A stretch of 64,000 nt of DNA. Source: an uncultured Bacteroidales bacterium. Its GTDB lineage: Bacteria > Bacteroidota > Bacteroidia > Bacteroidales > WCHB1-69. The stretch is from assembly GCA_947169105.1 (NCBI GenBank), contig CAMVOL010000009.1, positions 11,095 through 75,094 of the forward strand. Reading direction: 5' to 3'. The notes under the pieces are model-generated. The model was not told the origin of the DNA and made no database searches. It saw only the letters and a program-made list of their open reading frames with translations. The translations under genes and the position numbers were made by a program. Positions within the stretch are counted from its first letter, which is position 1. Every line of letters begins with the position of its first letter. Below are positions 135 through 62,400 of the stretch, in pieces.

Positions 135-611
135 TCACATGCTCAGCACCCCTGCCAACTTTTCCAAACCGACTCGATCGGTTTCATCAAACGCGGCAAG
201 ATGCTTGCTGTCAATGTCTAAAACGGCGAACACGCGGTCGTGGCGGATTAACGGCACCACGATTTCACTGCGGGAGGCGCTGCTGCAGGCAATATGTCCT
301 GGGAACTTCTCCACGTCGGGCACAATAATGGACTGCCGCATCTTCCACGCTGTGCCGCACACCCCGCGTCCGAACGGAATACGGGAACATGCCACCGGCC
401 CCTGAAACGGCCCTAAGACCAACTCTTCGCCCACTACACGGTAAAATCCCGTCCACCAGAAATGGAAGGCATCGTGAATCAGCGCCGCCGCATTGGCCAT
501 CAGCGCCACCTCATCGCTCTCGCCTTCCGCCAAGGCCTGCAACTGCTTGTGCAACAGTTCGTATTGCGACTGCTTATCTTCCACCGGCTGCCCAGTCCCC
601 ATAATTCTCAA
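135..611 (-). CDS. msrC: GAF-domain free methionine-(R)-sulfoxide reductase (YebR/MsrC family)
   Basis: 158-aa ORF with the conserved Cys-containing stretches CSRIPFGRGVCGTAW and FPGHIACSSASRSEIVVP, which are typical of fRMsr GAF proteins. Confidence 0.8.
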   Translation of the reverse strand: MRIMGTGQPVEDKQSQYELLHKQLQALAEGESDEVALMANAAALIHDAFHFWWTGFYRVVGEELVLGPFQGPVACSRIPFGRGVCGTAWKMRQSIIVPDVEKFPGHIACSSASRSEIVVPLIRHDRVFAVLDIDSKHLAAFDETDRVGLEKLAGVLSM

Positions 612-635: not shown

Positions 636-3600
636 TTAGTTGAATTCGTCCAGCACCACCAGATAGTTCCCTTTGTAGATGATGCCGTTGCGGCCGTCGA
701 TGGCGACGGGGTCGAAGACCTTGAACGGCACGCCGTTGATGGTACAGCTCTTCTCCTTCTCGTGGACGTGCAGGGCCTCGCAGTTCACCACGCAGGTCTT
801 TCCCAGCGCCGCCGCCGTCACGGCAGCGTGGGAAGTGGCACCGCCACGGGCCGTCAGCAGTCCGTCGCACTCGATGATCAGCTCGATGTCGTCCGGCACA
901 GTGTCGGGACGCACCAGCACGATTTGCTGGTTCGGGTCGTCGCCTGTGCGTACCTTGCGGATGTCGTCCATGTCGAACACGATGATGCCGTTCAGCACGC
1001 CGTTGCCGATACCGATACCCGTACCCACCTTGTCCATATTCTCCGGTTTTTCGCCGAACGTCTCGACCGATGTCTGGTTGGAAACCACCATGTTACGGGT
1101 CTGCAGGATGTACAAATCCTCGCCTTTCGCCGTCTCAAAGGTGAACTCAATCTCCTGATGGCTGAAGCCGTCCTTCTCGATCATGTTCTTTGCCACCTCT
1201 AACAGCTTGTTGTAAATTTCCGGATATTGCGACTGCAACGAGAACGGGCAGTTCTGATAGCCGGTTTCCCGTTGTGCCTCGCTGATAGGCAGCGTGTTGA
1301 CCAAGCCGCCCACGATGTCCTCGCCCTGGCTGAGGAACGAGAAGTCACCAGTAAGACGGATGTTGGCGCGGTTTTGCTTTACATCGCGGGTGAAGACCAC
1401 GCCGGAACCGGATTCGCGGTGGATGTTGCCGAGCACCATCTTCTGGATGGTGGCCGCCGTACCCCACTCTTCGGCAATGTGCATCTGGCTCCGATAGACC
1501 TTAGCACGCGGCGAGTTCCATGACTCGAATACGCACAGGATGGCCTTCTTCAGCTGCTTGAATGGGTCGCTCTCAAACTCTATACCGTTGTCTGTGAGGA
1601 ACTTCTTGTAAGCAAAGGCGATTTCGCGCATATTCTCCGGCGTGAAACCGATCTTTTGCGACACATTGTATTTTTGCTTGTAATTCAAGATGATCTGATC
1701 AAAGTCATTACGGTCGAGGCCGTGCGCCATACCCCATGTCTGTAGCAGACGGCGGTAGCAGTCCCACGAGGTCCACGCGTAGTTGTCCTGCTTGCTGAGC
1801 TGCTCGGTGATTTCGTCGTTCATACCAACATTAAGGAAGGTGTTCATGGCACCCGGCATAGAAATGGCAGAGCCGGAACGGACACTCAGCAACAACGGGT
1901 TCTTCGGATTGCCGAATTCGTAGCCCGTAATCTTCTCGATAGCAGCCAATTGCCGTTTAATCATCCGATCCAGTTCGCGATTGATGGGGGCTACCTTCTG
2001 GATAGCATTCATACGACGGAACACCTCGGTGGTGACGACGAATCCCGGAGGTACGGGGTATCCTCCGAGCATCAGCCGTTTCAAATAGTAGGCCTTGGCA
2101 CCGAGGAACACTTTGTTGTCCACTGCCGGTGTTTCCTGATACAACGGACTGATAGCCAGCTCTTGATCGTAGGTCATCAGGTTCTGCGCCTCCTCTGGCG
2201 ACAACAGGTTGGCCTGCGTGCGGAGGTTGTTCAGGATTTCTCCAATGAAATTATCCACCTGCTGGATCAAGAACGAAGAGGAGAGAAGCTCGCGGTAGAA
2301 AATCTCGGATTTTTGTGCCAGCAGCTTCTTCAGCTCCACCTTGTCCGTCACTGGTTCATCCATCAGCTGCGGGATGATGATCTTCAGCAACGGCTCGTAC
2401 GGACGAATGAAATAGTTGCTGATAATTTCGTTCAAACTGCTTCCCATAAACTGGAACAGATTGATATACTGTTCGATAGTGAAGCATCCCGAATTCAAAC
2501 TGTATTGGAGCATCTTCAGGTTTGACTCGAAACCTTGGTCGCTGACACCGTCGAGCTTCAGCCCTTCATACAAAAGCTGGATGGTGCTGCTGATCTCCTT
2601 GATGGCCTTAAGGGTGAAAATGCTGGTGTTGATATTTTCGATGAGGTCGTGAACGAGCACGGTGACAATACGTTCCAGTCGGAAAATCAGGCCGAGGGCA
2701 TCGAACTTGTTCTCGCGGTAGTAACCGTACATCGACGGGATACCGAAGGCAATGTGCCGTTTATAAACCACATTTTCCCACCCGACACTGGGCTTCGGGT
2801 CGAAAATAATTTCGTTCAACTTCCTCATTATGGAGAAGATATGCTCCAACGTGGCGACCGTATCCTTGCCTTTCAGCAGTTCCTCCAACGTGTTGACATC
2901 CTCAGTCTCCACGAAGCTGTTGCGCCGCATGATGTTGATGATGTTGGTGGAATCGAAGATGTACTTCTCTTTCAAAAGTTGGTATAGCTCGATGATGAGG
3001 CAGACGCGCTGGACGTCAATTTCGTCGGTATGGTTGATTTTCCGCCCAATCTGTTCTACCTTATCTTTCTTCATTTCAATGAGTTCGTCCAATGGGACGT
3101 TGGCAAACTGACAGAATTTGTGCAGGCAGTCGTGAACGCCATCCACCCAGGTACCGTGGTCTTCCACCAGTTCGTAAACGTTGGGCGGCAAAATTTCGTG
3201 CAGCCGCTCTTTTTTCAGGTCGTACCAGAAATGGATGACATCTAACGTAATCTGTATGTGGGAGTTATTGCCTTCCGTATGAATCTGTTTGCGGAGGAAA
3301 TGAATCAGTTTGTCGTTGCGGTGCGAAAGTTCGTCAATCTTGGTGGATACGTCGCGGAGCTGCCCTTCCGCGCCGATTTCGTTGAAATAGACAGGGAAGA
3401 TACGAGCCAGCTGTTTCGTCTGCTTGTAAACTGGTGATATTTCGGAGTTTAGCAGTTTTGTAATATCCTTTTGGAAGAAGTCGGTATCAAAAACGAAGAT
3501 GCCGCCGATACGCAGATTGATGATCAAAGCCGACAACAACCGCTGCATCGTTTCGGGTGCCAGTTCCACTAATTCGAGCCACACCCGCACGTTCTTGATG

Positions 3601-4739
3601 TGGCACGGATTCACTTTCAGCTCCCAGTCGTTAGTGACGTATTTAACGCCCGGTGTAACGAAACCGAAATCAATGATTTTTTTCTCTAAATGTTTGATTA
3701 ACCGATGATTATCAGTATGGATAATCTCTTTTCCTAATTCAAAAATGGAGTCAAGGATAAGATTCAGATGACTGTCGCGGAAGTCGGTGAATTGCTCGAA
3801 CAGGTTGTCAATGGAAGCAATGCAAAGATCTTCATCTTTCTCATTACTAACATGTTTGATAACCTTGTTCAATTCCACCAGCAGTTGTGGGTGGTTATCC
3901 ACTGTGCCGGGCAGATGCAGGAGATAGAAAATGTAGCTGAACTGTTCGGAGGTGTGTTCAAAGACGTAAATTTTGCTTTGGAAAGCCTTGATAATGTCAC
4001 CGAAAGTGAAGGCATTTTCACATAGTTCCTGCCAATTTTTGGCGTTATCAGCCAAAGAAACGAACTCATCAAACATCTTATCGCCCAATGATTCAAGTTC
4101 TTGCGAATAATCACGGGACATTTTGGCCTTATGTTCCTCATACCACTGCATAATCTGCGTGGTTTCACGCCAGTACTGGATGTGGCTTTTGACCAGACGC
4201 TGCATCATCTTGAAGGTGGCCTCGGCCGTGTCGGGATTTTCCGCAGCCTTTGCCAATTTCAGCTTAAATTGCCCGATATGGCAGTAGTAGCTGAACGCAT
4301 TGTCATCCAGATATTTGTCTAAAATCTGGATGCATCGTTTCACGCCGTCGCCGCAGGCTTTGAGCACGCTGTCGTTGCTGTCGATAAAGCGGAGGAAGTA
4401 GGTTACCAAGTCCTTGGCTTTGGCGTGCGGCAGCTTCTCACTCAGCAGCTTGTCGTAGATAGCAAGGACGATGTCGATAATCCGTTTTTGGTCCTCGAGG
4501 GGAAGCTCCTTGTAGAGCCAGAAGTCGCTAATAGTCACATTGGGAAGCGCCTTTACCACCTCGGTGCGGTTCGACATGGGGTGGTCGTATTCGGTGAAAA
4601 ATTCAACCACGCGCTTGTGCAGACCCCATTGGTTTTCCGATTGTTTGATGAACCACTGGTGCTCGTCGGGAATGACGTATTCGACGTTGGTATTTTTGAG
4701 GTTGACCTCTAACGCTTTGGAGTTTATTTCGTTGGTCAT
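636..4739 (-). CDS. PEP-utilising (pyruvate,phosphate dikinase-like) protein: unassigned ~870-aa helical N-terminal region + PPDK nucleotide-binding domain + phosphohistidine swivel domain, with no PEP/pyruvate TIM-barrel domain
   Basis: 1367-aa ORF. The C-terminal ~490 aa align by eye to the PPDK N-terminal half (PVPPGFVVTTEVF, NPLLLSVRSGSAISMPGAMNTFLNVGMND, GTAATIQKMVLGN, SGSGVVFTRD, QGEDIVGG, EIEFTFE..LYILQTR). The mobile domain has the catalytic-His motif (LLTARGGATSHAAVTAAALGKTCVV). The protein ends right after the swivel domain. Confidence 0.85.
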   Translation of the reverse strand: MTNEINSKALEVNLKNTNVEYVIPDEHQWFIKQSENQWGLHKRVVEFFTEYDHPMSNRTEVVKALPNVTISDFWLYKELPLEDQKRIIDIVLAIYDKLLSEKLPHAKAKDLVTYFLRFIDSNDSVLKACGDGVKRCIQILDKYLDDNAFSYYCHIGQFKLKLAKAAENPDTAEATFKMMQRLVKSHIQYWRETTQIMQWYEEHKAKMSRDYSQELESLGDKMFDEFVSLADNAKNWQELCENAFTFGDIIKAFQSKIYVFEHTSEQFSYIFYLLHLPGTVDNHPQLLVELNKVIKHVSNEKDEDLCIASIDNLFEQFTDFRDSHLNLILDSIFELGKEIIHTDNHRLIKHLEKKIIDFGFVTPGVKYVTNDWELKVNPCHIKNVRVWLELVELAPETMQRLLSALIINLRIGGIFVFDTDFFQKDITKLLNSEISPVYKQTKQLARIFPVYFNEIGAEGQLRDVSTKIDELSHRNDKLIHFLRKQIHTEGNNSHIQITLDVIHFWYDLKKERLHEILPPNVYELVEDHGTWVDGVHDCLHKFCQFANVPLDELIEMKKDKVEQIGRKINHTDEIDVQRVCLIIELYQLLKEKYIFDSTNIINIMRRNSFVETEDVNTLEELLKGKDTVATLEHIFSIMRKLNEIIFDPKPSVGWENVVYKRHIAFGIPSMYGYYRENKFDALGLIFRLERIVTVLVHDLIENINTSIFTLKAIKEISSTIQLLYEGLKLDGVSDQGFESNLKMLQYSLNSGCFTIEQYINLFQFMGSSLNEIISNYFIRPYEPLLKIIIPQLMDEPVTDKVELKKLLAQKSEIFYRELLSSSFLIQQVDNFIGEILNNLRTQANLLSPEEAQNLMTYDQELAISPLYQETPAVDNKVFLGAKAYYLKRLMLGGYPVPPGFVVTTEVFRRMNAIQKVAPINRELDRMIKRQLAAIEKITGYEFGNPKNPLLLSVRSGSAISMPGAMNTFLNVGMNDEITEQLSKQDNYAWTSWDCYRRLLQTWGMAHGLDRNDFDQIILNYKQKYNVSQKIGFTPENMREIAFAYKKFLTDNGIEFESDPFKQLKKAILCVFESWNSPRAKVYRSQMHIAEEWGTAATIQKMVLGNIHRESGSGVVFTRDVKQNRANIRLTGDFSFLSQGEDIVGGLVNTLPISEAQRETGYQNCPFSLQSQYPEIYNKLLEVAKNMIEKDGFSHQEIEFTFETAKGEDLYILQTRNMVVSNQTSVETFGEKPENMDKVGTGIGIGNGVLNGIIVFDMDDIRKVRTGDDPNQQIVLVRPDTVPDDIELIIECDGLLTARGGATSHAAVTAAALGKTCVVNCEALHVHEKEKSCTINGVPFKVFDPVAIDGRNGIIYKGNYLVVLDEFN

Positions 4740-5743
4740 AAGGAATTTATGTATTTAATAAGGTCAATGATTCGGGAGGAATAGCCGCACTCGTTATCGT
4801 ACCATCCGAGGATTTGGATGAAGTTGCCGCCGATGACTTTGGTCGCTAATGCGTCGAAGATGGCGGAGTGCGGGTTGTTGGTGATGTCGCTGCTGACTAT
4901 CGGGTCGTTGGTGAATTCGAGGAACCCTTTGAGCGGGCCTTCGGCGTAGCGGCGGAAGGCTTCGCGGATGTCGTGTGCGGTGGTCTCGTGGTGCAGCTCA
5001 GCGGTGAGTTCCACAAAGGAGCAGTCGGCGACGGGCACGCGGGTGGCGAAGCCGTCGAAGATGTTCTTCATTTCGGGGATTACCAGCTGCGTGGCACGGA
5101 TGGCGGACGACGTGGTGGGGATGATGTTGGCGAGGGCGGAGCGGGCACGGCGGTAGTCGCTGTGGAAGCCGTCCTGCAGGTTCTGGTTGTTGGTCATCGG
5201 GTGGACGGTGTTCATGAAGCCGCGGCGGATGCCGAACTCGTCGTTCACCACCTTGAGCATCACCGCGATACAGTTGGTGGTGCAGGAGGCGTTGGAGATG
5301 ATGTCATCTTCTGGTCTGAGTGTGAGGTGGTTAACTCCCATCACGACGGTACGTTCGATACTTGCGTCATCGGGCGGGCAGCTGAGGATGACGCGCTTCA
5401 CCTCGCCGCGTAGGTGGCCTTGCAGTGCCTGACGGGTTTTGAAACGGCCGCACGAGTCGATGACGTAGGTCACCCCGGTCGTGTCCCACGGGATCTGCTC
5501 CGGCGACGGGTAATTGGTGACGAGGATTTGCCGTCCGTTCACCGTCACGTGTGTCTCGTCAAAGTCGATTTCCGCACCGAACCGTCCGTGGATGCTGTCG
5601 TATTTCAGCAGGTGCGCCATCAGGCGTGTGTCCATCTTGTCGTTGATGTGCGTAACGACCAAATCCTCACGGCCTTCGAGCAGCCGGAAAACCATCTTCC
5701 CGATTCTGCCGAAGCCGTTGATTCCGATTTTTACAGGTGTCAT
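4736..5743 (-). CDS. Glyceraldehyde-3-phosphate dehydrogenase family protein, divergent paralogue
   Basis: 335 aa with N-terminal INGFGRIGK Rossmann motif, catalytic SNASCTTNC, TVHPMT and a WYDNECGYS C-terminus. The canonical STGAAKA loop is replaced by TTSSAIRA. Its stop overlaps the downstream start (ATGA at 4736-4739). Confidence 0.85.
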   Translation of the reverse strand: MTPVKIGINGFGRIGKMVFRLLEGREDLVVTHINDKMDTRLMAHLLKYDSIHGRFGAEIDFDETHVTVNGRQILVTNYPSPEQIPWDTTGVTYVIDSCGRFKTRQALQGHLRGEVKRVILSCPPDDASIERTVVMGVNHLTLRPEDDIISNASCTTNCIAVMLKVVNDEFGIRRGFMNTVHPMTNNQNLQDGFHSDYRRARSALANIIPTTSSAIRATQLVIPEMKNIFDGFATRVPVADCSFVELTAELHHETTAHDIREAFRRYAEGPLKGFLEFTNDPIVSSDITNNPHSAIFDALATKVIGGNFIQILGWYDNECGYSSRIIDLIKYINSL

Positions 5744-42955: not shown

Positions 42956-44206
42956 TTAATCCAAACTTGAGGCAATATATTCCGTCAGTTTGCCCAAACA
43001 GGTGACGTAGCTGCCGAACTCGTTGTCGTACCAGCCGAACACCTTGGCGTGGGTGACGGGGATGTTGATGTCCTTGAAATCGGATACATGAAGCGACTGC
43101 AAAATCTCAGCAGGAATCTTGAGGAAACCGGTGCGGGTGTGGATCTCCTTGCCTTCGATAGTGATGGCGGCGGGCAGGCCGAGCAGGTCCATCGAGACGT
43201 TCTGCTTCATCGAGAAGCGGAGCAGCCCCTTCTGTTCGCCTTCGGCGGCGCGACGGTAGATGTCGCGGATGTAGTCACCGGAGATGTACGGCACGCCGCG
43301 CTCGTTCATCCGGGAGTTGAAGGTGATGTTGAGGGCGATGAGCGACACCGACGGAGTGGGGATGCGGATGGAGTCGGCCATAAAGCCGAAGTGGGCGGTC
43401 TGCGGGATCACCTTCTCCAAGGTCTTGGCCGCACCCGTGGATGACAATATTATATTATTAAGCACGGAACGGTTCTTGCGGAGGTCGGAGGCGGCGGCAC
43501 TCGGCACGGCATCCAACACGCTCTGGGTGTTGGTGGCAGCGTGTACTGTTGACAAGGACGCCGTCAGCACGTTGTTGGTTTCGGGGTCGTCCAGAAGGGG
43601 CTTGATCATGTGGGCCAGGCCGGTCGTGGTGCAGCTGGCCGCCGAAATTACCTTGTGGACGGAGGGGTCGAAACAGGTGTGGTTGATACCATATATTAAG
43701 GTAGGAGTTTCTTCCGCGTTGAAGTCGGTTTTCTTGATCTTGAACGGGGCGCTGGCGATGACGTGCTCGGCACCGGCGGTGAGGTGGCCAAGGATGCTGC
43801 CTTTGCCTTCGTTGTCTTCCAACGACGGGTCAAGGAACTTTCCGGTGCAGTCCACCACCACGCGGACACCCTCTTCCTTCCAGTTGATGTTGCGGGGGTT
43901 CCGTTCGGTCATCAAAACCTTGATGGGCAGCCCGTCAATTTCGACGATGTGCTTCTCGCTATCGACAATCTCCACTTTGATCTGCTTGCCAGCCCGTCCG
44001 TAAAGGAAGAGGCTGAGGTTGCCGTAGGTGGAGTCGGTGGTCAGCGACTGGACAAGGTCTTCCAGACTTTTACCGACCTCGCGACCCACATTGAGGACGA
44101 TGCCGTCGAACTTGCGGGAGAGGAGGTGGTGCCAAAGGGTTAGTTTTCCGATACGCCCGGCTCCGTTGATGCCGAGCAGATTCTTTTGGTGAAGTACGAT
44201 ACTCAT
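42956..44206 (-). CDS. Glyceraldehyde-3-phosphate dehydrogenase family protein, long (416-aa) form
   Basis: INGAGRIGK Rossmann start, catalytic SAASCTTTG, TVHAATNTQ, retained SSTGAAK loop and a WYDNEFGY C-terminal motif. Several insertions make it longer than a ~335-aa GAPDH. Confidence 0.8.
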   Translation of the reverse strand: MSIVLHQKNLLGINGAGRIGKLTLWHHLLSRKFDGIVLNVGREVGKSLEDLVQSLTTDSTYGNLSLFLYGRAGKQIKVEIVDSEKHIVEIDGLPIKVLMTERNPRNINWKEEGVRVVVDCTGKFLDPSLEDNEGKGSILGHLTAGAEHVIASAPFKIKKTDFNAEETPTLIYGINHTCFDPSVHKVISAASCTTTGLAHMIKPLLDDPETNNVLTASLSTVHAATNTQSVLDAVPSAAASDLRKNRSVLNNIILSSTGAAKTLEKVIPQTAHFGFMADSIRIPTPSVSLIALNITFNSRMNERGVPYISGDYIRDIYRRAAEGEQKGLLRFSMKQNVSMDLLGLPAAITIEGKEIHTRTGFLKIPAEILQSLHVSDFKDINIPVTHAKVFGWYDNEFGSYVTCLGKLTEYIASSLD

Positions 44207-44242
44207 AATATTTTGGTTTTTAATTATTTCTATAAAAGAATT

Positions 44243-45184
44243 TTACACATTGCCGACCTCAAAATGGGAGGCGATGGAGGTCTTGTCAATGACGCTCTGG
44301 ATGACATCGCCGATGAGGTTGGCCACGCTTAGGACGATGAATTTGTCGGAGGGGCGTTTCATCGGGATGGTGTCAGTGATGATGAACTTGTCCACGATGG
44401 AATTTTCGAGCTTGTCGAGGGCGTCACCGGAGAGAAGGGCGTGGGTGCACATCACATAGACCTGTTTGGCGCCGCACTCTTTGACGCGGGCGGCGGCTTT
44501 GCAGATGGTGCCGCCAGTGTCGATGATGTCGTCAAGCAGAATGACGTTTTTCCCTTCCACATTGCCGATAATCTGGAGATTGGAGACCTCGTTGGCCTTC
44601 ACGCGCTGTTTGAAGCCGATGGCAAAGTCGCAGTCGAGTGCCTTGGCGAACACGGAGGCGCGCTTGGTGCCGCCGGTGTCGGGGGAGACGATGCAGAGGT
44701 TGTCCCAGTTAAGGCTGCGGATATAGGGGAGAAATACGGAAGAGGCGAAAAGGTGGTCAACGGGGACTTCGAAGAAACCCTGTATCTGGTCGGCATGCAA
44801 GTCCATGGTGATGAGGCGGTTGATGCCGGCGGCGGTGAGAAGGTTGGCCATCAGTTTGGAACCGATGGAGGTTCTCGGCTTGTCCTTGCGGTCCTGCCGT
44901 GAGTAGCCGAAGTAGGGCACCACGGCGATAATCTCGGCGGCGGAGGCGCGCTTGGCGGCGTCAATCAGGATGAGAAGCTCAAGGATATTTTCAGCAGGGG
45001 AGAAGGTGGGCTGGATGATGAAGACGTGCCGGCCACGGATGGTTTCGTTGTAATAGGCCTGAATTTCACCGTCCTTGAACTGCACGATTTCCTCATTCAG
45101 AAGGTTAAGGCCCAGATGGGCGGCAATTTTCTCGGCCAGCGGACGGTTCGCCCGACCCGTTACAAGAGCAATTTCCGATTTCAT
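44243..45184 (-). CDS. prs: Ribose-phosphate pyrophosphokinase
   Basis: 313 aa with YFGYSRQDRK, DLHADQIQGFF and the PRPP-binding loop VILLDDIIDTGGT. Confidence 0.93.
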   Translation of the reverse strand: MKSEIALVTGRANRPLAEKIAAHLGLNLLNEEIVQFKDGEIQAYYNETIRGRHVFIIQPTFSPAENILELLILIDAAKRASAAEIIAVVPYFGYSRQDRKDKPRTSIGSKLMANLLTAAGINRLITMDLHADQIQGFFEVPVDHLFASSVFLPYIRSLNWDNLCIVSPDTGGTKRASVFAKALDCDFAIGFKQRVKANEVSNLQIIGNVEGKNVILLDDIIDTGGTICKAAARVKECGAKQVYVMCTHALLSGDALDKLENSIVDKFIITDTIPMKRPSDKFIVLSVANLIGDVIQSVIDKTSIASHFEVGNV

Positions 45185-53447: not shown

Positions 53448-56400
53448 ATGAAAAAGTTTTACACTTTTGAGCCTAAAAATTTCCGAATCTTGACCAAGAT
53501 GAAGAGTTTTCTTGCCGTCGCACTCCTTTTGCTGATGGCTGTAGGTAATGTAAAAGCACAAACGGAACAAACAAAGACGGTTAGTTTTGACAGTTATGGT
53601 TTTAGTAATGCCCAAACCTTCCCGTCAGGAGATGTTGTAAGTGGTTTTATAAGTTTTTCGACAGAGAAAAATAGTGCAACTACTGATCCTGCTTACTATG
53701 GGAATTCGAATAAAGATATTCGTTTATATGCGGGTAGCGGAAATGGCTGTGCTTTAAAGTTGTCCCTTTCTGGTGGAGTAATTGTAACAGCTGTGGAAAT
53801 TCAAAGTAAAAGAACCCAAACATCTACCTATAATTTTTACGTGGATGGAGTTGATAAAGGACAAACCACTGCATCATTGAGCGCGGGTCAATGGATTAAA
53901 TTGACAGGTATAAATGCTACTGAAACTGTTGTTTTCAAAAACACCAATGCAGCGGCAAGTGGTAGTGATAGTCAGATAAGAATCACGGGTATTAAGGTTA
54001 CATATATTGTTACTTCCTGCACAGTTACCCGCACGGAGCCGGTGAATCTGTCCGTGTGTACGTCACCGTACCAACAAGTGATATTTGGTAAAAATAATAA
54101 GGTATATTCTTCCACCCGTGCGGAAGGGGAGTATCTTGACACCATCGCTGGTGTGGGCGGCGATTGCGATACCGCCGTTACGGTGAACTTCACATTGATT
54201 CCTGCTTCCTATGAAAAGTATGATACCATCAAAGCTGGTGAACATTACGCCTTTGGTGATATGGATCTTACAACAACTACTAATGAAAATTATACATTCA
54301 CTGCAAGCTGTGGTTGCGACAGTATTGTGTTCCTTTATCTGACCGTTCTCCAGCCGGTGATGAAGGATGCCGTCAACGATTTTGTTTGTGCCGGTAAGAC
54401 CTATATTTATAGAGGCAAGAATTACACGGAGGCAAACACCTACTACGACACGGTGAAGATGGGTGCCGGCATTTGCGACACCATCTACACCTTGGTTCTC
54501 TCCGTCAGAGACAACGCCACGTATGCGTTCGACCAGACGATCAAGCCGGGTGAAACATGGTTCTTCACCGACAAGTATCCCAGCATCGCCACGGCTGGTA
54601 CTTATAAAGACACACTCACCGCCGCCAACACCTGTGACAGCATCGTGACCGTCACCGTGACCGTCCTCCTGCCGGTGGTGCTGCCTGCTGAGGATGCCAC
54701 CACCTGCGAAGGAAAAGCATATTCCTTCAGAGACAAGGATTACACCGTGGCAGATACCTACTACGACACAGTGAAGATGGGCGCCGGCATTTGCGACACC
54801 ATCTACACCCTGATCCTCACGGTGAACCCGAAAGCCACCTATGAATATGACTATTCGATGGACGAAGGTGACACCTACGATTTCTTCGGGACCCCGATCA
54901 CGGAATCCGGCGTCTATCCCTACACGCTGACGGATGCCGCCGCCAATGGCTGCGACAGTGTCGTCACCGTCACCGTCACCGTGATTCCGCTGCCCGATAC
55001 CATCTACGAGGAAACGGTTGCCATTTGCGAAGGTGAAACCTATACCTTCCATACGTTTGAAGGAGATAGTATATGTACAGAAACAAATATATATATATTC
55101 ACGAAAGCAGGTTTTGCCCAGGGTGGTCGCGACAGTATCCGTATCCTCAACCTCACCGTTATTGAAGAAGTGAGAGTGGACACCAGCATCACCATTTGCG
55201 AAGGCCAGTTGCCACACGAATTCTTCGGACGCACTTACGATGAAAGCATCGGAACAGGTACCCACAATTACACCATCCACATGGAAAGTGAGGGTGGCTG
55301 CGACAGCGCCTTAGTGCATCTGACCCTCATCGTCGGTGAGGAGTACGAAGGCGAGACGGTTGAGGCAACCATCTGCGAGAGCGAGCTTCCGTATCACTTC
55401 GGCCCCACCGGTCAGGATACTCTCATCCAGACGGCAGGTGCCCATGTCATCACGTTCCATACGGTGCTTGGTTGCGACAGCACCGTCACCCTGAAGCTCA
55501 ACGTCAATCCGGAATACGACCTTGCGGAAACGCTGACCATCTGCGAGAGCGAACTGGCCGGCACTGGCTATGTTTGGCGCGACACCGTCTTTATGGAAGG
55601 TACCACTTCCGGCATCTTCGTTTTCAACAGAGAGACTGTCGCCCACTGCGACAGCATCGTGACCCTGACCCTTACGGTGAACGGCCTCAACAACGAGACG
55701 GTCTATGACACCATCTGCGACAGCGAGCTGGCCGGCACCGGCTATGCTTGGCGCGACACCACCTTCATGGAAGGTACGGAGAGCGGCACTTTCGTCTTCA
55801 ACCGCAAGAATGCCAATAACTGTGACAGCATCGTCACCTACCACCTCACTGTCAATCCGGCCCGTACGGAAACGGCCTATGACACCATCTGTGCGAGCGA
55901 GCTGGCCGGAACCGGCTATGCTTGGCGCGACACCACTTTCATGGAAGGTACTACAACCGGCACTTTCGTCTTCAACAGAGAGACTTCCCTCGGCTGCGAC
56001 AGCATCGTGACCCTGTACCTCACGGTCAACCCGACCTATACGCTGCCTTTGGTGGACACCACCATCTGCGCCAGCGCACTGCCGTTCAGTTACTATGACA
56101 CCACTTTTGATGCGAACACGCTTCCTGGTGTGTACAACTATACCTTCCGCGGTCACACCCTTGCCGGCTGCGACAGCATCGGAACTGTGAAGCTCACGGT
56201 CAATCCGTCCTATACGGAGACAGATACTCTCAAAATCTGTCAGCTTGAGCTGCCCTATGTCTATACCACCGGCCTCGGCCAGACGATCACTTTGGAGGAA
56301 GGCATTCCCACGGGTACGTATGACACCATGCTTCTGTTCAACACCACCCTCAACTGCGACAGCAACATCGTCCTGCACCTCACGGTCACTCCGAGCACAG

Positions 56401-59400
56401 AGTGCCAGTTCATAATCCAAGTGGATACCGGCGCACATGGCACCGTTGATGGCGCAACCACTGTTTACTACCAGGATACCGCCCGTTTCACCATCAAAGC
56501 CGACAACTGCTACTATATCGAAAGCATTAAGATGGATGGCGTTGATGCCGCTTTCGACCCCTATAGCACATACAAGGAAGTTTCTTTCGACAGCGTTTAT
56601 ACGGACCACACGTTGGCCGTCACTTTCGCCATGTTCCAATACACGGTAACGGCTACGGCCCACGGCGAAGGCACCATCACGGCTAGCGACACCTACGACT
56701 GCGACTCTGTTGTGGTTTACAACTATGCCGCCGCTGCTGGTTATCATATCGACTCTGTGAAGGTTGACGAAGAGCTTACGGTTTATACCGACGAGACCCA
56801 GACAGAGGGCAGCAAGAACTTCGGTCCTATTGCCGCCAACCACACAATTGATGTCTATTACAGCATCAACCACTACACGGTGACGATCACGGCTGGTGAG
56901 CACGGCACGGTTACCCCGAGCGGTGTTCAGAATGTTGTTTATGGCACACAGCCGATCCTCAACTTCACTTCCGATGGTTGCTACGAAGTGGCTTCCATCA
57001 CAGTGAATGGTACCCAGATTGACACCACTTGCACCACCTTCACGCTTGACTCCATCAAGGAGAACACGACCGTTGACATCGCCTTCGACACCATTCATTA
57101 TCAGATTATGGTGACGAGAGCGGGTAACGGTAACGGTACTATCAACGGCAACTATGGTGATATTGCCGGTGAAATTGCCTGCGCTAATCCGGTCAATTAT
57201 GATGTGATTGCGGATGAAGGTTCCTATATTGACACTATTATTTGGTACGGTGTAACCATTCCGTTCACCGGCCACGTGACAAGCTGGTCCATCGGTCTGC
57301 CTTCTGTTACGCAGAATATGGAACTCTATGTGGTCTTCTCCCTTGACAAGGAGCATGTGTTGGCATACGCTGATGGCGGTCTTGGAACTGTCACTCCGGC
57401 CGACACAATGGTTGGCTTCGGCACCAGCTGTGACATCCAAGTGGTGGCCGACACGCTCAACGGTTATCATATCGCCACCATCTACACGGGCGAAAATCCC
57501 GAGAACGTGGTTTGGGAAGGCCAGAACAACGAAAAGACCCATATCTTCACTCTTGGCAGTGTGACTACCGACACCACCGTCCACGCCACCTTCGAGCTGA
57601 ACCGCTACACCGTAGCCGCTACGACGGAAGGTACGGAGGGCACCCTCACTCCCGATAGCATTACCGTGCTTCATGGTCATGACTTGGGCTTCACCGCTAT
57701 TGCCGGTGACTGCCAGTTCATCGACAGCATCTTTGTGGATGGTATTTCCCAGATCATTACCAATGTTGACACAATGAAATTCACGGTCAGCAACGTTATC
57801 ACGCCTGACCGCACGGTGCGCGTGGTCTTCTCCACTGTCCAGTATCAGATGACCGCCACCTTCAATAATGTGGAAGGCACGGTCAGCGACAGCATCGTGG
57901 ACTGCGGCAGCAGCTACACCTACACCATTACCCCGAACACGGGCTACCATGTGGACACTATTTACTATGATGCTGAAAACTTCGTCATAGGAGAAACCAG
58001 CTATACCTTTACGAACATCCGTGAAGATCATAACATCAAGGTCGTCTTCGCTATCAACCAGTACGAAGTGACCGCCAGCACGGACGGCAACGGCACGGTG
58101 ACGCCCACTTCCGAAACAGTGGCTCACGGCGATGATCAGACCTTTACCGTGACACCGAACGACTGCTACCATATCAGCAGCATCACCGTGAACGATGTGG
58201 ACTACGACCTGAGCCATGTGAGTGGTGGTACATTTACGGTTTCCAACATCACGGAGGCCACCACAGTGAAGATCAACTTCGCTCTCGACACCTTCCAGCT
58301 GGTCCAGACCATCACGGGTGAGGGTACGGTGAACGAAATGGCCGACACTACGGTGAATGTGCTTTGCGGCAGCGATTACATCTTCAACATCGCCGCTGCC
58401 GAAGGCAACCACATCGTAAGCTATACGGTTAATGGCGGAACTCCCGTTACGGTTGACAACAGCGAAAGCTATGTTGCTACGCTGACCGATACGATTAAGA
58501 ACATCCAAGCGGATTGCACGCTTGCCGCTGAATTCGCCGTGAACACCTACACCATTTACACGGAGAGACTTAGCGGTATGGGTACTTTCACTCCCGATGT
58601 CGTAACCGTCAACTACGATGCTGACACGATCATCATCGTTACGGCCGACAACGCCAACGGTTATCATATCGCTTCCGTCACTGCCACTGGTATCAATGAA
58701 GTTTACAGCAATGACGACCACAAGATAGTGGATACGGTGCATCTTACTAACATCCGCGCCAACGACACCCTGAAGGCAGAGTTCGCTCTCGACCTCCACC
58801 TGATTTCCGTAATTATCGAGGGTGAAGGTGCGGTTGCTCCGATGGACACCAACATCACTTTCGGTGACACCGTCACGTTCAACATCACTCCTTACGATTG
58901 CCAGTACATCAGCAGCATCGTCGTGGACGGTCGCGACACGACTATCACCGATCCTGCAGGTATGCAGCTGACCTTCAACCATGTGGTGGATACTCACAGA
59001 CTGGAAGTCACCTTTGCTCCTACCACCTATCTGGTCAAGTGGAAAGAGTACTATCCGGGTATGCCCACCATCAGAGAAGACTCCAACGTGGCCTGCGGTA
59101 CTGACTTCACTTACGAGGTTCGTGCCGAAGAAGGTTTCCACATCCACGAGGTCTATCTGGATTATGTCGTTGATACGACCTTCGAAACCGAACAGATTGA
59201 TGCGTATGACTTGGTAATCCCCAATGTCCGTGAGACCCACCTTATTGAGGTACAGTTCGAACAGGACTACTACAGCTTGCATCTTGACACGGTTGGCGCA
59301 GGTACGATTGTGTGCGACAGCGCTGATCTCTCGAAGATTTATTACAACACCCCGCTGCAGTTCACGGTGACTCCGGAAGAATGTTACGAGTTCACCAGTC

Positions 59401-62400
59401 TCACCATCAATGGTGTGAACTATACGGATCAAGTGGTGGGCGGTGTCCTCAACTGGAACGCCATCGACAGCGGTGCCGTGGTCGCCACCTTCAGCATCAT
59501 CCGTTACGAAATGGCCTCCTCGGTCAATGACGGCAATATGGGTACGGTGACACCCACCGATTCTGTGGATTGCGGTACGCCTTACACTTACTACATCGCC
59601 GCCAACGAAGGCTACCATATCGACACTATCACTTGCGGCTCGTTTGTCAAGGTGCTGGGTGAGAACGACAATGTTCTTGACACGTTAGTGATTGCGAACG
59701 CTGTTTCTGACACGGCCGTCCGTGTGGTCTTCTCCATCAACACTTACAATGTTACGATTTGCACACCTGCTCCTGAAAACGGCACATTGACCGTCAATCC
59801 TGCCATAGTGGAACACGGTGAAAACTGCGAGGTGACTATCGTTGCCGATTCTGTACACGGCTACCACATTGACACCATCTTCTGCGGTGACAACATCGTG
59901 CCGCTGGGCCAGAACGAGAACACGTTCTATGTATATAACATCAATGGTATCACTTCCGATACGACCGTCTGTGCGTCGTTCAGCCTGAACAACTACACGA
60001 TTACCGCTTCCATCGCTGCTGAAGATGTTGAACACCTCTCCATCATGCCTGGTGACACCAATGTGAAGTTTGGTGACACGGTGATTTACACGGTGAAGAG
60101 CATCAATGACTGCTACTACATCAACGACGAGATTTTGGTGGACGGTGTAGCTGTTGAGTTCACCACTGGCGACAGCACGCGTGCTACCTACGCTTTTGAA
60201 GCCATTAATTCGAACCACACGATTGTGGCCAACGCCGCGATTTACCGTTACGCAGTCACCACCACGGTCAATGACAACACTCTTGGTGAAATCACTCCGG
60301 GTGACACCACGCTTGACTGTGGTAGCGACTATGCTTACGTTGTGACCCCGATCACGGGTTATCATATTGATTCTGTGAAGGTGAACGGCGTGATGCAGAC
60401 CATTACCGACAGCTCCACCTTCTCCAGCACGATTGAGGACATCCACACGGATACGACGATTGCTGCTTACTTCAGCATCAACCATTACATGATTGTCGCC
60501 TCCACGGGTGATAACAATGGTACGATTGATCCGGTTGACACCATCGTTTACGAATACGGTGCAACCCCGACCTACATCATCAAACCGAATGACTGCTACT
60601 ACATCAGTGAGGTTCTGGTGGACGGCACGGCTGTGGAGTTTACCACTGGCGACAGCACGTACGCTACCTATACTTTCGATGCGATCGATGCGAGCCATAC
60701 CATTGTGGCCAACTTCGCCATCTACAAATATGATATGACGGCTGACTTCGAAGCGGCAATGGGTACTGTCACCACCGCTACCGACATTAACTGCGGTGCT
60801 GATTACCAATATATGATTACCGCCAACGAAGGCTTCCATATTGTCAGCTACACGATTGGTGGTGTTACTGTCACCAACACGATGGAAGAACCCAACGACT
60901 ACATCGTTGATTCTGTCCTGATCTCCCCGGTCAGCCAGGATACCAATCTTGTGGTTGAGTTCGATACGAACACCTACACTGTCTCTGTCTGTGCTGATGC
61001 AGTGAACGGCAGTCTTGTGGTGAACGATCCGACCGAGGTGAACTACAATGAAGGTACGACAGTCACTGTCGTTGCTGACACCGCCAATGGTTATCATATC
61101 GCCAGCATTACCGACAGCCGCGGCATCACCGTTCCTTACGGCCACAATACGGACAAGATCGCCACTTACAATGTGGACAATGTTGTTGCCGATGATACGG
61201 TGTGCGCCACCTTCGAACTGAACACCTTCACCATCCATACTGAAAACGGTGAAAACGGCACAATCACTCCGTCGAACGACACCATCGTCACCTACGGCGA
61301 TGTGGTTGACTTCGTCATCGAGCCGAACAGCTGCTACTACATCTCCAACATTTTGGTGGATGGCGAAAGCGTCTGGACCGGTTACACAGATTCTGTCAGC
61401 GCCTACACGCTCCAAATCAATGTTTCCGAATTCGATCCGGCCGTTGAGACCCACACCATCGCCACCGAATACACCATCTTCCAATACACGATGACATCCA
61501 CTGTCAATGATGCGACGATGGGTACGGTGACGCCCACCACCACGGTGGAATGCGGTTCGACCCACAACTACGAGATTGAAGCCACCACAGGTTATCATAT
61601 TGACCATGTGATTTTGGACAATGTCCAGACCGACTACGAAGGTCAGCAGAATACCGCCACCATCACGGTGACTGACATTCGTGCAGACCATCAGTTGGAT
61701 GTCTTCTTCGCGAAGAACCGCTACACAGTGACGGCCACCGCCGGTGAGCACGGCACGATTACTCCGTCGGGTGTGACCACTGTTGAACACGGCGCATCCC
61801 TCACCTACACGATTGCACCTGATCCTTGCTACTACATCGACAGCGTTCTGGTGAACGGCGAGGTTGTTGAATTCACCACTGGCGACAGCACAGGTGGTAC
61901 CTACACCTTCGCTTCCGTTGAGGACACCATGACCATCCACGCCGACTTCCATATCTATGAATATAGAATGATGGCTGAATATGATGAGGAAATGGGTTCT
62001 GTGGAGACAGGTATTGCCACCTGCGGCAGCAACTACACTTACACGATTCACGCCAACGAAGGCTACCACATCACGAGCATGCGTGTCGGCACGACGACGC
62101 ACAACAACAATGTGGGTCTGAATACGGATACTGTTGCTACCTTCAATGTCTATAGTGTCTATCAGGATACTACTTGCTACGTTGAGTTCGCTCGGAACAC
62201 CTACACTGTCAACTTCAATGTGACGGGTGAGGGTGAAGTTGAGCCGGGTAACACCACGGTCGATTACGACTCCACATTGGCTTACACGGTTACTGCCGGT
62301 ACAGGTTATCACATTGTGAGCATTACCGACAACGGCACAGTGGTTTACACCAATGACAACCGCGATACGGTTGCTCACTCTGGCAGCATTGCCAATATCC

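What the first reader, a model, noticed from the sequence alone, without database searches (positions are those of the whole stretch)
636..5743. Divergent GAPDH paralogue translationally coupled to a PPDK-like dikinase that lacks the PEP/pyruvate domain and carries an ~870-aa unknown N-terminal region
The 1367-aa protein contains the ATP-grasp nucleotide-binding half and the phosphohistidine swivel domain of pyruvate,phosphate dikinase / PEP synthase. The catalytic His context GGATSHAAV is present. The protein ends directly after the swivel domain, so the TIM-barrel that binds PEP/pyruvate is missing.

In its place there is a long, helical N-terminal region with no motif I can assign. In known relatives with this layout (rifampicin phosphotransferase, glucan-water dikinases), the extra domain binds the substrate that receives the phosphate.

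The gene's ATG overlaps the stop of the upstream GAPDH-family gene (ATGA, 4736-4739). That paralogue keeps the catalytic Cys and His (SCTTNC, TVHPMT). However, its canonical S-T-G-A-A-K-A loop is replaced by TTSSAIRA, which suggests altered substrate or phosphate handling.

The tight coupling suggests a two-enzyme module acting on an unidentified phosphorylated metabolite.
Basis: partly seen in the sequence, partly recalled or inferred. Interest (0 to 1): 0.65.

Follow-up and report, generated by a model that had tools for sequence, protein, structure and literature searches.

The report
Orphan dikinase locked to GAPDH paralogues
A rumen Bacteroidales genome carries an uncharacterised 1367-residue ATP-dependent phosphotransfer enzyme whose gene sits next to special copies of the glycolytic enzyme GAPDH in hundreds of anaerobic bacteria, which points to an undescribed step of central carbon or energy metabolism.

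Summary
A 335-aa GAPDH-family gene (4736..5743, minus strand) overlaps by ATGA a 1367-aa gene (636..4739). That protein has a PPDK-type ATP-grasp and a phosphohistidine swivel domain, no PEP/pyruvate barrel, and an all-helical 870-residue N-terminal domain. This domain has no match in Pfam, NCBIfam, PDB sequences or PDB folds.

The pairing is not chance. In 67 species genomes with both flanks available, 61 have a GAPDH-family gene beside the dikinase, and no other neighbour is conserved. The ancestral partner is a 416-aa GAPDH-like protein, which lies immediately downstream of the dikinase in other phyla. Here it sits 38 kb away (42956..44206) because this lineage broke the cassette.

The 335-aa protein belongs to a separate clade. 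It is 41% identical to E. coli GapA and has conserved changes in the phosphate loop.

The N-domain keeps an invariant Arg/Lys/His/Asp set down to about 20% identity, as an active site would.

My best guess (confidence about 0.4) is a dikinase that interconverts 1,3-bisphosphoglycerate and 3-phosphoglycerate, coupled to AMP+PPi/ATP+Pi. The main rival is a VadK-like regulatory kinase acting on GAPDH. I found no literature on the family. I rate it a new variant of a known kind, with high interest.

The parts
4736..5743 (-). gap335: a 335-aa NAD-type GAPDH paralogue of a dikinase-linked clade. Cys154, His181 and the Arg residues of the anion sites are kept. The clade signatures are HP(T/M)TNNQ, T(S/T)SA(V/I)(R/K), RVPVxDCS and WYDNE(C/Y).
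   Evidence: (TIGR01534 375.2 against a cut-off of 367.2; every more specific model is below its cut-off).
4736..4739 (-). ATGA start/stop overlap between gap335 and the dikinase (translational coupling).
   Evidence: The same -4/-8/-1 overlaps occur in 23 of the 27 co-oriented gap335-dikinase loci.
636..4739 (-). The whole 1367-aa dikinase gene. It belongs to a family of remarkably constant length (about 1360-1376 aa).
2130..4739 (-). N-domain (residues 1-870): an all-alpha domain found only in this architecture. The family-invariant polar set is D418, R462, D469, R483, K484, H487, K592, Y593, K660, H662, S669, R816 and D829. It is the presumed phosphoryl-acceptor/donor site.
   Evidence: models; no fold match; 434 clusters, always N-terminal to the dikinase half; no sequence match; invariant residues.
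1065..2129 (-). PPDK-type ATP-grasp nucleotide-binding domain (residues about 871-1225). The PPDK catalytic residues are conserved: K882 (=K22), R954 (=R92), E1196/E1198 (=D321/E323) and Q1213/R1215 (=Q335/R337).
   Evidence: (alignment to 9pzl/1kbl).
639..1034 (-). Phosphohistidine swivel domain (residues about 1236-1367). The catalytic His1304 lies in GGATSHAAV (codon 828-830). The protein ends here, with no PEP/pyruvate TIM barrel.
42956..44206 (-). gap416: a 416-aa GAPDH-like protein and the ancestral partner of the dikinase. Cys, His, STGAAK and Arg231 are kept. Asp32 is replaced (LNVGRE) and there are about 80 residues of surface insertions. In this lineage it has been separated from the dikinase by a rearrangement and now follows prs.
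   Evidence: (below every NCBIfam cut-off).

Best explanation
The locus is part of a conserved three-gene metabolic cassette, gap335 - dikinase - gap416, which is split in this genome. The dikinase works like pyruvate,phosphate dikinase. Its swivel His1304 shuttles a phosphoryl group between the PPDK-type ATP-grasp site (ATP + Pi <-> AMP + PPi) and a second active site. That second site is built by the novel 870-residue N-domain instead of the PEP/pyruvate barrel.

I propose that the second substrate pair is 1,3-bisphosphoglycerate / 3-phosphoglycerate:
1,3-BPG + AMP + PPi <-> 3-PG + ATP + Pi.
The acyl phosphate would be delivered by, or handed to, the co-encoded GAPDH paralogues, probably within a complex. 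In effect this would be a PPi-dependent counterpart of phosphoglycerate kinase, sitting in the genome where pgk sits in classical gap-pgk operons.

Shown: the architecture, the intact catalytic residues, the conserved linkage to GAPDH genes, and an active-site-like conservation pattern in the N-domain.
Inferred: the substrate, the use of Pi/PPi, the direction of the reaction, and the formation of a complex.
For: 1. Linkage. GAPDH-family genes are the only conserved neighbours in 80 species genomes from at least 10 lineages. Of the 67 loci with both flanks, 61 have one: 15 have both paralogues, 26 have gap416 only, 10 have gap335 only, and 10 have a canonical GapA transcribed divergently. Family members with only 24-26% N-domain identity still have gap416 directly downstream, with overlapping or 13-nt spacing.

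2. All three GAPDH types keep Cys149, His176, Thr179 and Arg231. One of the three types is canonical GapA (53% identical to E. coli GapA). The shared chemistry is therefore GAP / 1,3-BPG.

3. The ATP-grasp is of PPDK type (TIGR01828 360.7 bits over profile positions 11-343). The PPDK catalytic residues and the His/Thr motif are intact.

4. The N-domain keeps three Arg, three Lys, two His and three Asp invariant across 58 sequences, down to 18-25% identity. That is expected for a site binding a polyanion plus Mg2+, and unexpected for a passive scaffold.

5. Precedent. GAPDH-family genes sit directly upstream of pgk in E. coli epd-pgk-fbaA. No pgk is linked to any of the 88 loci.

6. Thermodynamics, from textbook values and not computed here. 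Hydrolysis of 1,3-BPG is about -49 kJ/mol and ATP -> AMP + PPi is about -46 kJ/mol, so the proposed reaction is near equilibrium.

7. The carriers are anaerobes: rumen and gut Bacteroidales, Cloacimonadota, Ignavibacteria, Clostridia, Geobacteraceae and Desulfobacteraceae.

8. All three genes are covered at similar low depth in gut metatranscriptome assemblies, and one 1198-nt contig crosses the gap335/dikinase junction.
Against: - There is no biochemical evidence of any kind.
- The N-domain has no similarity to PGK or to any known phosphoglycerate-binding fold.
- I could not test whether the carriers lack pgk. Cultured carriers such as Acetobacterium and Geobacter relatives are expected to have one, so the enzyme would be an addition, not a replacement.
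- The need for two or three different GAPDH types is not explained by a simple PGK-like role.
- Six of 67 loci, and the more distant family members (P0297, P0380), have no GAPDH neighbour.
- Use of Pi/PPi instead of water is inferred only from greater similarity to PPDK than to PEP synthase.
- Helical-solenoid-like folds often serve protein-protein binding.
Confidence: 0.4

Rival explanations
1. A regulatory kinase or scaffold. Like Mycobacterium tuberculosis VadK (a PPDK that lost its PEP/pyruvate domain), the protein autophosphorylates on the swivel His. It would use the large helical N-domain to dock onto GAPDH paralogues and modulate their activity or assembly by binding or protein phosphorylation. 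It would not turn over a metabolite.
For: - VadK has the same ATP-grasp + His-domain core without the barrel. It autophosphorylates and pulls down methylcitrate-cycle enzymes (PMC13400623).
- The short-PPDK model NF004531 matches the C-terminal half at 277.7 bits.
- The only Foldseek hits of the N-domain are HEAT/ARM-type solenoids, which are typical protein-binding scaffolds.
- Distant relatives carry an N-terminal hemerythrin sensor domain.
- gap416 has about 80 residues of surface insertions that could be docking elements.
Against: - The Foldseek matches are meaningless in quality (TM 0.1-0.2).
- The N-domain has an invariant Arg/Lys/His/Asp constellation at about 20% identity, and the family length is extremely constant. 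Both look enzymatic.
- Stoichiometric, translationally coupled expression with highly conserved GAPDHs suits a metabolic complex better than a regulator.
- VadK has no equivalent of the 870-residue domain.
Confidence: 0.22
2. A dikinase for a different small molecule. The N-domain would bind another carboxylate or hydroxyl compound, for example 4-phosphoerythronate/erythrose-4-P chemistry, glycerate or another phospho-sugar acid. The enzyme would activate it as an (acyl) phosphate, and the specialised GAPDH paralogues would then reduce or oxidise it. The logic is that of aspartokinase with aspartate-semialdehyde dehydrogenase.
For: - GAPDH-family enzymes do diversify in substrate, as Epd shows.
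- gap335 is as far from GapA (41%) as Epd is (41%) and has a conserved altered phosphate loop.
- gap416 is below every curated GAPDH cut-off.
- In rifampicin phosphotransferase, the extra domain binds the phosphoryl acceptor (PMC4844700, found).
Against: - gap416 has a fully canonical active site: SCTT, H176, T179, STGAAK, R231.
- In ten genomes the dikinase is paired with a canonical GapA.
- No further pathway genes (transporter, isomerase, aldolase) are conserved nearby.
- Neither paralogue reaches the Epd or ArsJ-type model cut-offs.
Confidence: 0.2
3. A self-protection or resistance pair against a GAPDH-targeting electrophile of the pentalenolactone / heptelidic-acid type. It would combine an insensitive GAPDH copy with a phosphotransferase that inactivates the inhibitor, as rifampicin phosphotransferase does for rifampicin.
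For: - The dikinase belongs to the same superfamily as rifampicin phosphotransferase (weak match NF041857, 30.7 bits).
- Duplicated, divergent GAPDH genes are a known self-resistance device (own knowledge).
Against: - The cassette is a stable chromosomal feature across many phyla, with strong purifying conservation.
- No biosynthetic, efflux or mobile-element genes are conserved nearby.
- There are no PADLOC or resistance-family hits.
- The RPH model score is far below its cut-off (999).
Confidence: 0.04
4. Nothing special: an ordinary glycolytic gapA that happens to lie next to an unrelated large gene.
For: - NCBI's type I GAPDH model is passed, narrowly.
- Public annotations call the protein 'type I glyceraldehyde-3-phosphate dehydrogenase'.
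Against: - 61 of 67 loci from distant phyla keep a GAPDH-family neighbour, often with overlapping stop and start codons.
- The clade-specific substitutions are conserved.
- The clade is monophyletic and separate from canonical GapA.
Confidence: 0.02

Closest known systems
Pyruvate,phosphate dikinase (PPDK; e.g. Clostridium symbiosum 1KBL/1DIK)
   Same: - ATP-grasp nucleotide domain. It is the best PDB and NCBIfam match: E 1e-70, about 45% identity over residues 877-1217.
- Catalytic Lys/Arg/Glu/Gln/Arg residues.
- Swivel domain with the GG(A/M)TSHAAV phosphohistidine motif and the preceding Thr.
   Different: - The C-terminal PEP/pyruvate TIM barrel is absent.
- An unrelated 870-residue all-alpha domain precedes the ATP-grasp.
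- The swivel domain is C-terminal and tethered on one side only.
- TIGR01828 scores 360.7 against a cut-off of 843.
VadK (Rv1127c) of Mycobacterium tuberculosis, a truncated PPDK acting as a regulatory histidine kinase (PMC13400623)
   Same: - ATP-grasp + phosphohistidine domain without the PEP/pyruvate domain.
- Functionally tied to specific central-metabolic enzymes.
   Different: - VadK is about 490 aa and has no N-terminal domain.
- Its partners are methylcitrate-cycle enzymes found by pull-down, not operon-encoded GAPDHs.
- It occurs in Actinomycetes, not in anaerobes of the Bacteroidota and allied lineages.
Rifampicin phosphotransferase (RPH) and other small-molecule dikinases of the PEP-synthase superfamily (phenylphosphate synthase, the Hpe two-component kinase, PigC/RedH)
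   Same: The principle is shared: ATP-grasp + swivel His + an extra domain that binds the phosphoryl acceptor (PMC4844700; PMC12167813, listed).
   Different: - The domain order is different (RPH: ATP-grasp - substrate domain - His).
- There is no sequence or fold similarity of the extra domain.
- Model scores are 20-35 bits against cut-offs of 900-1350.
- The ATP-grasp is of PPDK type, not PEP-synthase type.
gap-pgk operons (e.g. E. coli epd-pgk-fbaA)
   Same: A GAPDH-family gene sits immediately next to the gene for the enzyme that handles the acyl phosphate it makes.
   Different: The neighbour is a 1367-aa dikinase with no homology to PGK. There are up to two specialised GAPDH paralogues flanking it.
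Type I GAPDH subfamilies (GapA, Epd, ArsJ-associated GAPDH, NADP-dependent GapB)
   Same: - Both paralogues have the Gp_dh_N and Gp_dh_C domains, catalytic Cys/His and the phosphate-site Arg/Thr.
- gap335 keeps Asp32 (NAD type).
   Different: - gap335: the Gly209Ser/Ala211Val loop, HPxTNNQ and RVPVxDCS.
- gap416: Asp32 is lost, and there are about 80 inserted residues and a 4-residue S-loop insertion.
- Neither reaches any subfamily cut-off, apart from gap335 narrowly passing the general model.

Membership tests
PEP-utilising dikinase superfamily (PPDK / PEP synthase / RPH) | ATP-grasp nucleotide-binding domain (Pfam PPDK_N) | tested here: met
   PF01326 105.2 bits against a cut-off of 27. The PPDK catalytic residues are aligned and conserved.
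PEP-utilising dikinase superfamily (PPDK / PEP synthase / RPH) | Mobile phosphohistidine domain with the catalytic His in the TSH motif | tested here: met
   PF00391 57.6 bits against a cut-off of 23.1. GGATSHAAV with His1304 is conserved in at least 90% of 58 family members.
PEP-utilising dikinase superfamily (PPDK / PEP synthase / RPH) | Autophosphorylation from ATP and transfer of the beta-phosphate to an acceptor | not testable with these tools
   This requires an enzyme assay.
Pyruvate,phosphate dikinase proper (TIGR01828) | C-terminal PEP/pyruvate-binding TIM barrel (PEP-utilizers_C) | tested here: not met
   There is no PF02896 hit, and the protein ends at residue 1367, just after the swivel domain. 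The PDB alignments stop at PPDK residue about 510.
Pyruvate,phosphate dikinase proper (TIGR01828) | Score above the curated equivalog cut-off | tested here: not met
   360.7 bits against 843.45. For PEP synthase TIGR01418 the score is 64.4 against 739.75.
Rifampicin phosphotransferase | NF041857 equivalog score and the domain order ATP-grasp / RIF-binding / His | tested here: not met
   30.7 bits against 999. The extra domain is N-terminal and has no fold match to any PDB entry.
VadK-type truncated PPDK | A protein of about 490-530 aa consisting only of the ATP-grasp and His domains | tested here: not met
   The core architecture is shared, but an 870-residue conserved domain precedes it. The short-PPDK model NF004531 scores 277.7 against 456. 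The description of VadK comes from PMC13400623.
Type I GAPDH (TIGR01534) - gap335 | Score above the curated cut-off; catalytic Cys149 and His176 | tested here: met
   375.2 bits against 367.2, a narrow pass. SCTTNC and TVHPMT are present.
Type I GAPDH (TIGR01534) - gap335 | Canonical S/T-T-G-A-A-K phosphate loop, as in glycolytic GapA | tested here: not met
   The loop is T-S-S-A-I-R here. T(S/T)SA(V/I)x is conserved in the clade, while canonical GapA genes in related genomes keep TTGAAKA.
Type I GAPDH (TIGR01534) - gap335 | Clusters with glycolytic GapA | tested here: not met
   It is a separate monophyletic clade in a neighbour-joining tree: 41% identical to E. coli GapA, 46% to Thermus GAPDH, and 47% to the canonical GapA of related genomes. 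Identity within the clade is 51-98%. Caveat: the reference set is small and no bootstrap was run.
Type I GAPDH (TIGR01534) - gap416 | Score above the curated cut-off | tested here: not met
   286.9 bits against 367.2. All other GAPDH/Epd models are far below their cut-offs. The Pfam Gp_dh_N and Gp_dh_C domains are present.
Erythrose-4-phosphate dehydrogenase (Epd) | TIGR01532 / NF010058 equivalog scores | tested here: not met
   gap335 scores 278.3 against 530.55, and gap416 scores 112.7. Identity to E. coli Epd is 35% and 27% respectively.
ArsJ-associated GAPDH | NF033735 score and an adjacent arsJ transporter | tested here: not met
   327.3 bits against 450. No transporter is conserved next to the cassette.
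Known anti-phage defence systems | Match to a PADLOC model | tested here: not met
   None of the three proteins has a hit.

The most novel reading that the evidence does not exclude
The cassette encodes a previously unknown energy-conserving enzyme complex of anaerobic glycolysis/gluconeogenesis. A GAPDH-docked '1,3-bisphosphoglycerate:AMP,PPi dikinase' would make ATP from AMP and PPi at the triose-phosphate oxidation step. In reverse, together with PGK, it would form an ATP-driven PPi-generating cycle. It would use a catalytic domain with a fold not yet seen in any solved structure.
Probability: 0.3. Interest if true: 0.92.

Novelty: new variant of a known kind. Interest (0 to 1): 0.78.

Why it matters
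A protein family this large, this conserved (47-60% identity between phyla over 1365 residues) and this widespread among gut, rumen, sediment and digester anaerobes is very likely a metabolic enzyme. Yet it is annotated only as 'PEP/pyruvate-binding domain-containing protein' or 'hypothetical'. Its GAPDH partners are mis-annotated as ordinary GAPDH or as hypothetical proteins.

If the substrate is 1,3-BPG/3-PG, this would add a third PPi-linked step to glycolysis, beside PPi-PFK and PPDK. That would change ATP-yield calculations for rumen and gut Bacteroidales and for syntrophs. It would also bear directly on an open question: where the PPi for PPi-dependent glycolysis comes from. [quoted passage not shown]

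Whatever the substrate, three things are new and concrete, and all are directly testable with recombinant proteins:
- the 870-residue domain, a catalytic-looking fold with no structural relative;
- two new GAPDH subfamilies;
- a very clean guilt-by-association signal.

Tried and rejected
- A known domain in residues 1-870. Pfam at E<=10 on three sub-fragments gives only noise. NCBIfam gives nothing. An HMM profile against PDB sequences gives only a marginal hit to ribonucleotide reductase R2F (E 0.004, 18.8 bits) in the least conserved stretch. I judge it helical noise. Foldseek of the 880-residue model and of the conserved core 360-880 gives only solenoid and designed-repeat hits with TM 0.1-0.2 and none at E<=0.001 for the core.
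- A circularly permuted PEP/pyruvate barrel. Rejected, because the domain is all-alpha.
- Other architectures for the N-domain. An exhaustive phmmer search of 1.84 billion representatives finds it only at the N-terminus of this dikinase. Shorter hits are contig fragments.
- Other conserved neighbours (pgk, transporters, regulators). None were found. The downstream GAF gene (135..611) is not conserved. The neighbours in Acetobacterium wieringae are uninformative.
- ArsJ-type, Epd-type or defence-system membership. Rejected on scores and context.
- Promoter and terminator scans. Counts are at shuffle expectation, with no terminator between or after the two genes on the minus strand. Bacteroidota promoters are not covered by that tool.
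- Literature. Six full-text searches for a BPG/phosphoglycerate dikinase, a PPi-dependent PGK, PPDK-like + GAPDH, or the annotation strings found nothing on this family.
- Absence of pgk in carrier genomes. This could not be tested, because whole genomes are not retrievable with these tools.

Full report
**Observation**

The window encodes two genes on the minus strand: a 335-aa ORF (4736..5743) and a 1367-aa ORF (636..4739). The sequence ...TCC TTA TGA CC... shows that the ATG of the large gene overlaps the TGA of the small one by four bases, at 4736-4739.

Pfam assigns the small protein to the two GAPDH domains. In the large one it finds only PPDK_N (residues 879-1148) and the mobile phosphohistidine domain (1271-1336). 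NCBIfam and PDB searches agree. The C-terminal 490 residues align to the first 510 residues of pyruvate,phosphate dikinase, about 45% identical to the Clostridium symbiosum enzyme. The nucleotide-site residues are kept (K882, R954, E1196, E1198, Q1213, R1215), and so is the GGATSHAAV motif with His1304. The protein then stops, so there is no PEP/pyruvate barrel.

**The N-terminal 870 residues**

- AlphaFold2 with a 45-sequence alignment gives a confident all-alpha model: pLDDT 81.5, pTM 0.68. A second model of the conserved core (residues 360-880) has pLDDT 78.7.
- Foldseek against the PDB returns only generic HEAT/ARM solenoids and designed repeat proteins at TM 0.1-0.2. For the core, nothing reaches E<=0.001.
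- Pfam at E<=10, NCBIfam and a profile search of PDB sequences give nothing credible.
- An exhaustive phmmer search of 1.84 billion representative proteins finds the domain in 434 clusters. In every full-length hit it is at the N-terminus of a protein of 1335-1540 residues with the same dikinase half.
- The family is strikingly uniform: 1360-1376 aa and 47-96% identical across phyla.
- I aligned 58 members, down to 18-25% identity in this domain. A small polar set stays invariant: D418, R462, D469, R483, K484, H487, K592, Y593, K660, H662, S669, R816 and D829.
- These residues lie largely in the motifs IGAEGxLRDV...LIHFLRKQIHTEGNN and YKRHIAFGIPSMYG. Some of them fall in low-confidence, presumably mobile, loops of the model.
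- This is the conservation pattern of an active site that binds a polyanion and a metal. It is not the pattern of a passive scaffold. That reading is an inference.

**Genomic context**

A scan of one genome per species found several hundred carriers. The carriers include Bacteroidales, Lentimicrobiaceae, Prolixibacteraceae, Marinilabiliales, Ignavibacteria, Cloacimonadota, Aminicenantes, Calditrichales, Clostridia (including cultured Acetobacterium wieringae), Geobacteraceae and Desulfobacteraceae.

I clustered all ORFs within 6 kb in the 80 best loci. The only conserved neighbours are GAPDH-family genes. The 67 loci with both flanks divide as follows:

| Arrangement | Loci |
|---|---|
| 335-aa type upstream and 416-aa type downstream | 15 |
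| 416-aa type downstream only | 26 |
| 335-aa type upstream only (as in the window) | 10 |
| Canonical GapA transcribed divergently upstream | 10 |
| No GAPDH-family neighbour | 6 |

The upstream junction is usually a stop/start overlap, and the downstream spacer is usually 12-60 nt. Dikinases with only about 25% N-domain identity still have the 416-aa gene directly downstream. The dikinase/gap416 pair is therefore the ancient core.

The window does contain this third gene, at 42956..44206 on the minus strand. In close relatives the order is gap335-dikinase-gap416-exbB-...-UDP-glucose dehydrogenase. A blastn comparison shows that the window lineage broke the cassette exactly in the dikinase|gap416 spacer. 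This left gap416 with exbB and placed it behind prs.

**The GAPDH paralogues**

gap335:
- It narrowly passes NCBI's general type I model (375 against 367) and no specific one.
- It forms a monophyletic clade with the other co-oriented dikinase-linked copies, 51-98% identical within the clade.
- It is only 41% identical to E. coli GapA, 46% to Thermus GAPDH and 47% to the canonical GapA genes of related genomes. That is about as far as Epd is from GapA.
- The clade keeps Cys149, His176, Thr179, Arg195, Arg231 and Asp32.
- It has conserved replacements: HP(T/M)TNNQ, T(S/T)SA(V/I)(K/R) (Gly209Ser, Ala211Val/Ile), RVPVxDCS and WYDNE(C/Y).
- At least 22 of its 120 closest database clusters have a longest contig of the same length as the longest contig of a dikinase cluster. 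This suggests they sit on the same contigs.

gap416:
- It is below every curated cut-off and 30-35% identical to any reference, yet 59-96% identical within its clade.
- It retains a canonical catalytic centre, including STGAAK.
- It replaces Asp32 (LNVGRE), which by established GAPDH knowledge suggests NADP or dual specificity.
- It carries about 80 residues of insertions, including 4 in the S-loop and 24 before the last strand.

Public names are 'type I GAPDH' for gap335 and 'hypothetical' or 'GAPDH NAD-binding domain-containing protein' for gap416.

**Expression**

Assemblies of two gut metatranscriptome runs contain contigs 92-99% identical to the dikinase, gap335, gap416 and prs, at similar low depth. 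One 1198-nt contig spans the gap335/dikinase junction. Caveats: these are related strains, contig depth is a poor measure of expression, and DNA carry-over is possible. DNA runs place the organism in bovine and other gut metagenomes. The rest of the window is ordinary Bacteroidales chromosome (LptD, methylmalonyl-CoA mutase, a T9SS-tailed esterase, a TonB-dependent receptor).

**Mechanism**

Three things are shown:
- a catalytically intact PPDK-type ATP-grasp and swivel His;
- a new, active-site-like domain in place of the PEP/pyruvate barrel;
- exclusive, ancient genetic coupling to GAPDH enzymes whose active sites are built for GAP/1,3-BPG, including canonical GapA in one lineage.

The most economical reading is that the new domain handles the acyl phosphate made by GAPDH:
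1,3-BPG + AMP + PPi <-> 3-PG + ATP + Pi.
This would be a PPi-linked analogue of PGK, encoded where pgk sits in classical gap-pgk operons (E. coli epd-pgk-fbaA).

From textbook free energies (about -49 kJ/mol for 1,3-BPG hydrolysis, about -46 kJ/mol for ATP -> AMP + PPi), the reaction would be near equilibrium. It could therefore serve two purposes:
- extra ATP conservation in glycolysis;
- in reverse, pulling gluconeogenesis, or (together with PGK) generating PPi.

The substrate, the use of Pi/PPi, the direction and the formation of a complex are all inferences. I give this model a confidence of about 0.4.

It does not explain why two specialised GAPDHs are needed. I could not check whether carriers lack pgk. 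The N-domain resembles no known phosphoglycerate-binding fold.

**Rivals**

1. A VadK-like regulatory kinase or scaffold acting on GAPDH (0.22). VadK is a PPDK that lost its barrel, autophosphorylates and binds methylcitrate-cycle enzymes (PMC13400623). Hemerythrin-fused distant relatives also hint at sensing.
2. A dikinase for another phosphorylated acid or alcohol, whose product the paralogues reduce or oxidise (0.2).
3. A resistance pair against GAPDH-targeting electrophiles (0.04).
4. Chance adjacency (0.02). This is effectively refuted.

**Comparison and novelty**

The protein is a member of the PEP-utilising dikinase superfamily. It fails the defining features of PPDK (no barrel, and a score of 361 against 843), of PEP synthase, of rifampicin phosphotransferase and of VadK.

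Six full-text searches found no description of the family, of a phosphoglycerate dikinase or of a PPi-dependent PGK.

I class it as a new variant of a known kind: a known catalytic engine, with a new substrate domain of unknown fold and a new, conserved partnership with two undescribed GAPDH subfamilies.

The interest is high for three reasons. The signal is unusually clean. The family is widespread in gut and environmental anaerobes. If the leading model holds, it touches the open question of PPi economy in PPi-dependent glycolysis (PMC8863071).

Noticed in passing
window 42956-45184 (minus strand); compare L095-L098: The ancestral gap335-dikinase-gap416 cassette is split in this lineage, exactly in the dikinase|gap416 spacer. 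gap416 stayed with exbB/exbD/UDP-glucose dehydrogenase and now lies 36 nt behind the PRPP synthetase gene (prs). An RNA contig crosses the prs/gap416 junction.
   Followed up: yes
P0297 and P0292 (distant family members; L093 1166-5788): Some distant members of the dikinase family (about 25% N-domain identity, 1455-1540 aa) carry an extra N-terminal hemerythrin (di-iron O2/NO/redox sensor) domain. The locus examined (L093, for P0297) has no GAPDH neighbour. L089 has a globin-like gene upstream. This hints at redox or oxygen control in part of the family.
   Followed up: partly
window 55311-59618 and 59685-63473 (minus strand): Two adjacent very large ORFs (1435 and 1262 aa) have no Pfam or NCBIfam match at all.
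   Followed up: partly
window 135-611 (minus strand): A 158-aa GAF-domain protein starts 24 nt downstream of the dikinase stop, and no terminator-like site lies between them. It is not found near the dikinase in any of the 88 other loci, so it is probably not part of the module.
   Followed up: yes
window 4080-4575 (dikinase residues 55-220): The N-domain profile gives a marginal hit to ribonucleotide reductase R2F, a ferritin-like di-iron helical bundle (E 0.004, 18.8 bits). The hit is in the least conserved part of the domain and no ligand residues are conserved. It is probably noise.
   Followed up: partly
window 5271-5305: Metatranscriptome contigs pile up to very high depth (up to about 9800) on just these 35 bases, which encode the universally conserved GAPDH active-site peptide (SNASCTTNC). 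The contigs run on into unlike sequence. They are highly expressed GAPDH mRNAs of other community members, not this gene.
   Followed up: yes
L057, L065, L074, L075, L077, L082-L085, L087: In one Bacteroidales/Lentimicrobiaceae/Marinilabiliales sub-lineage, the dikinase (1371-1375 aa) has neither special paralogue adjacent. Instead a canonical GapA is transcribed divergently from a shared intergenic region of about 130-150 nt.
   Followed up: partly
window 636-5743, composition: The GAPDH gene and the dikinase C-terminal half are GC-richer (about 0.55) than the N-domain coding region (about 0.47). This parallels their higher protein conservation. I did not analyse it further.
   Followed up: no
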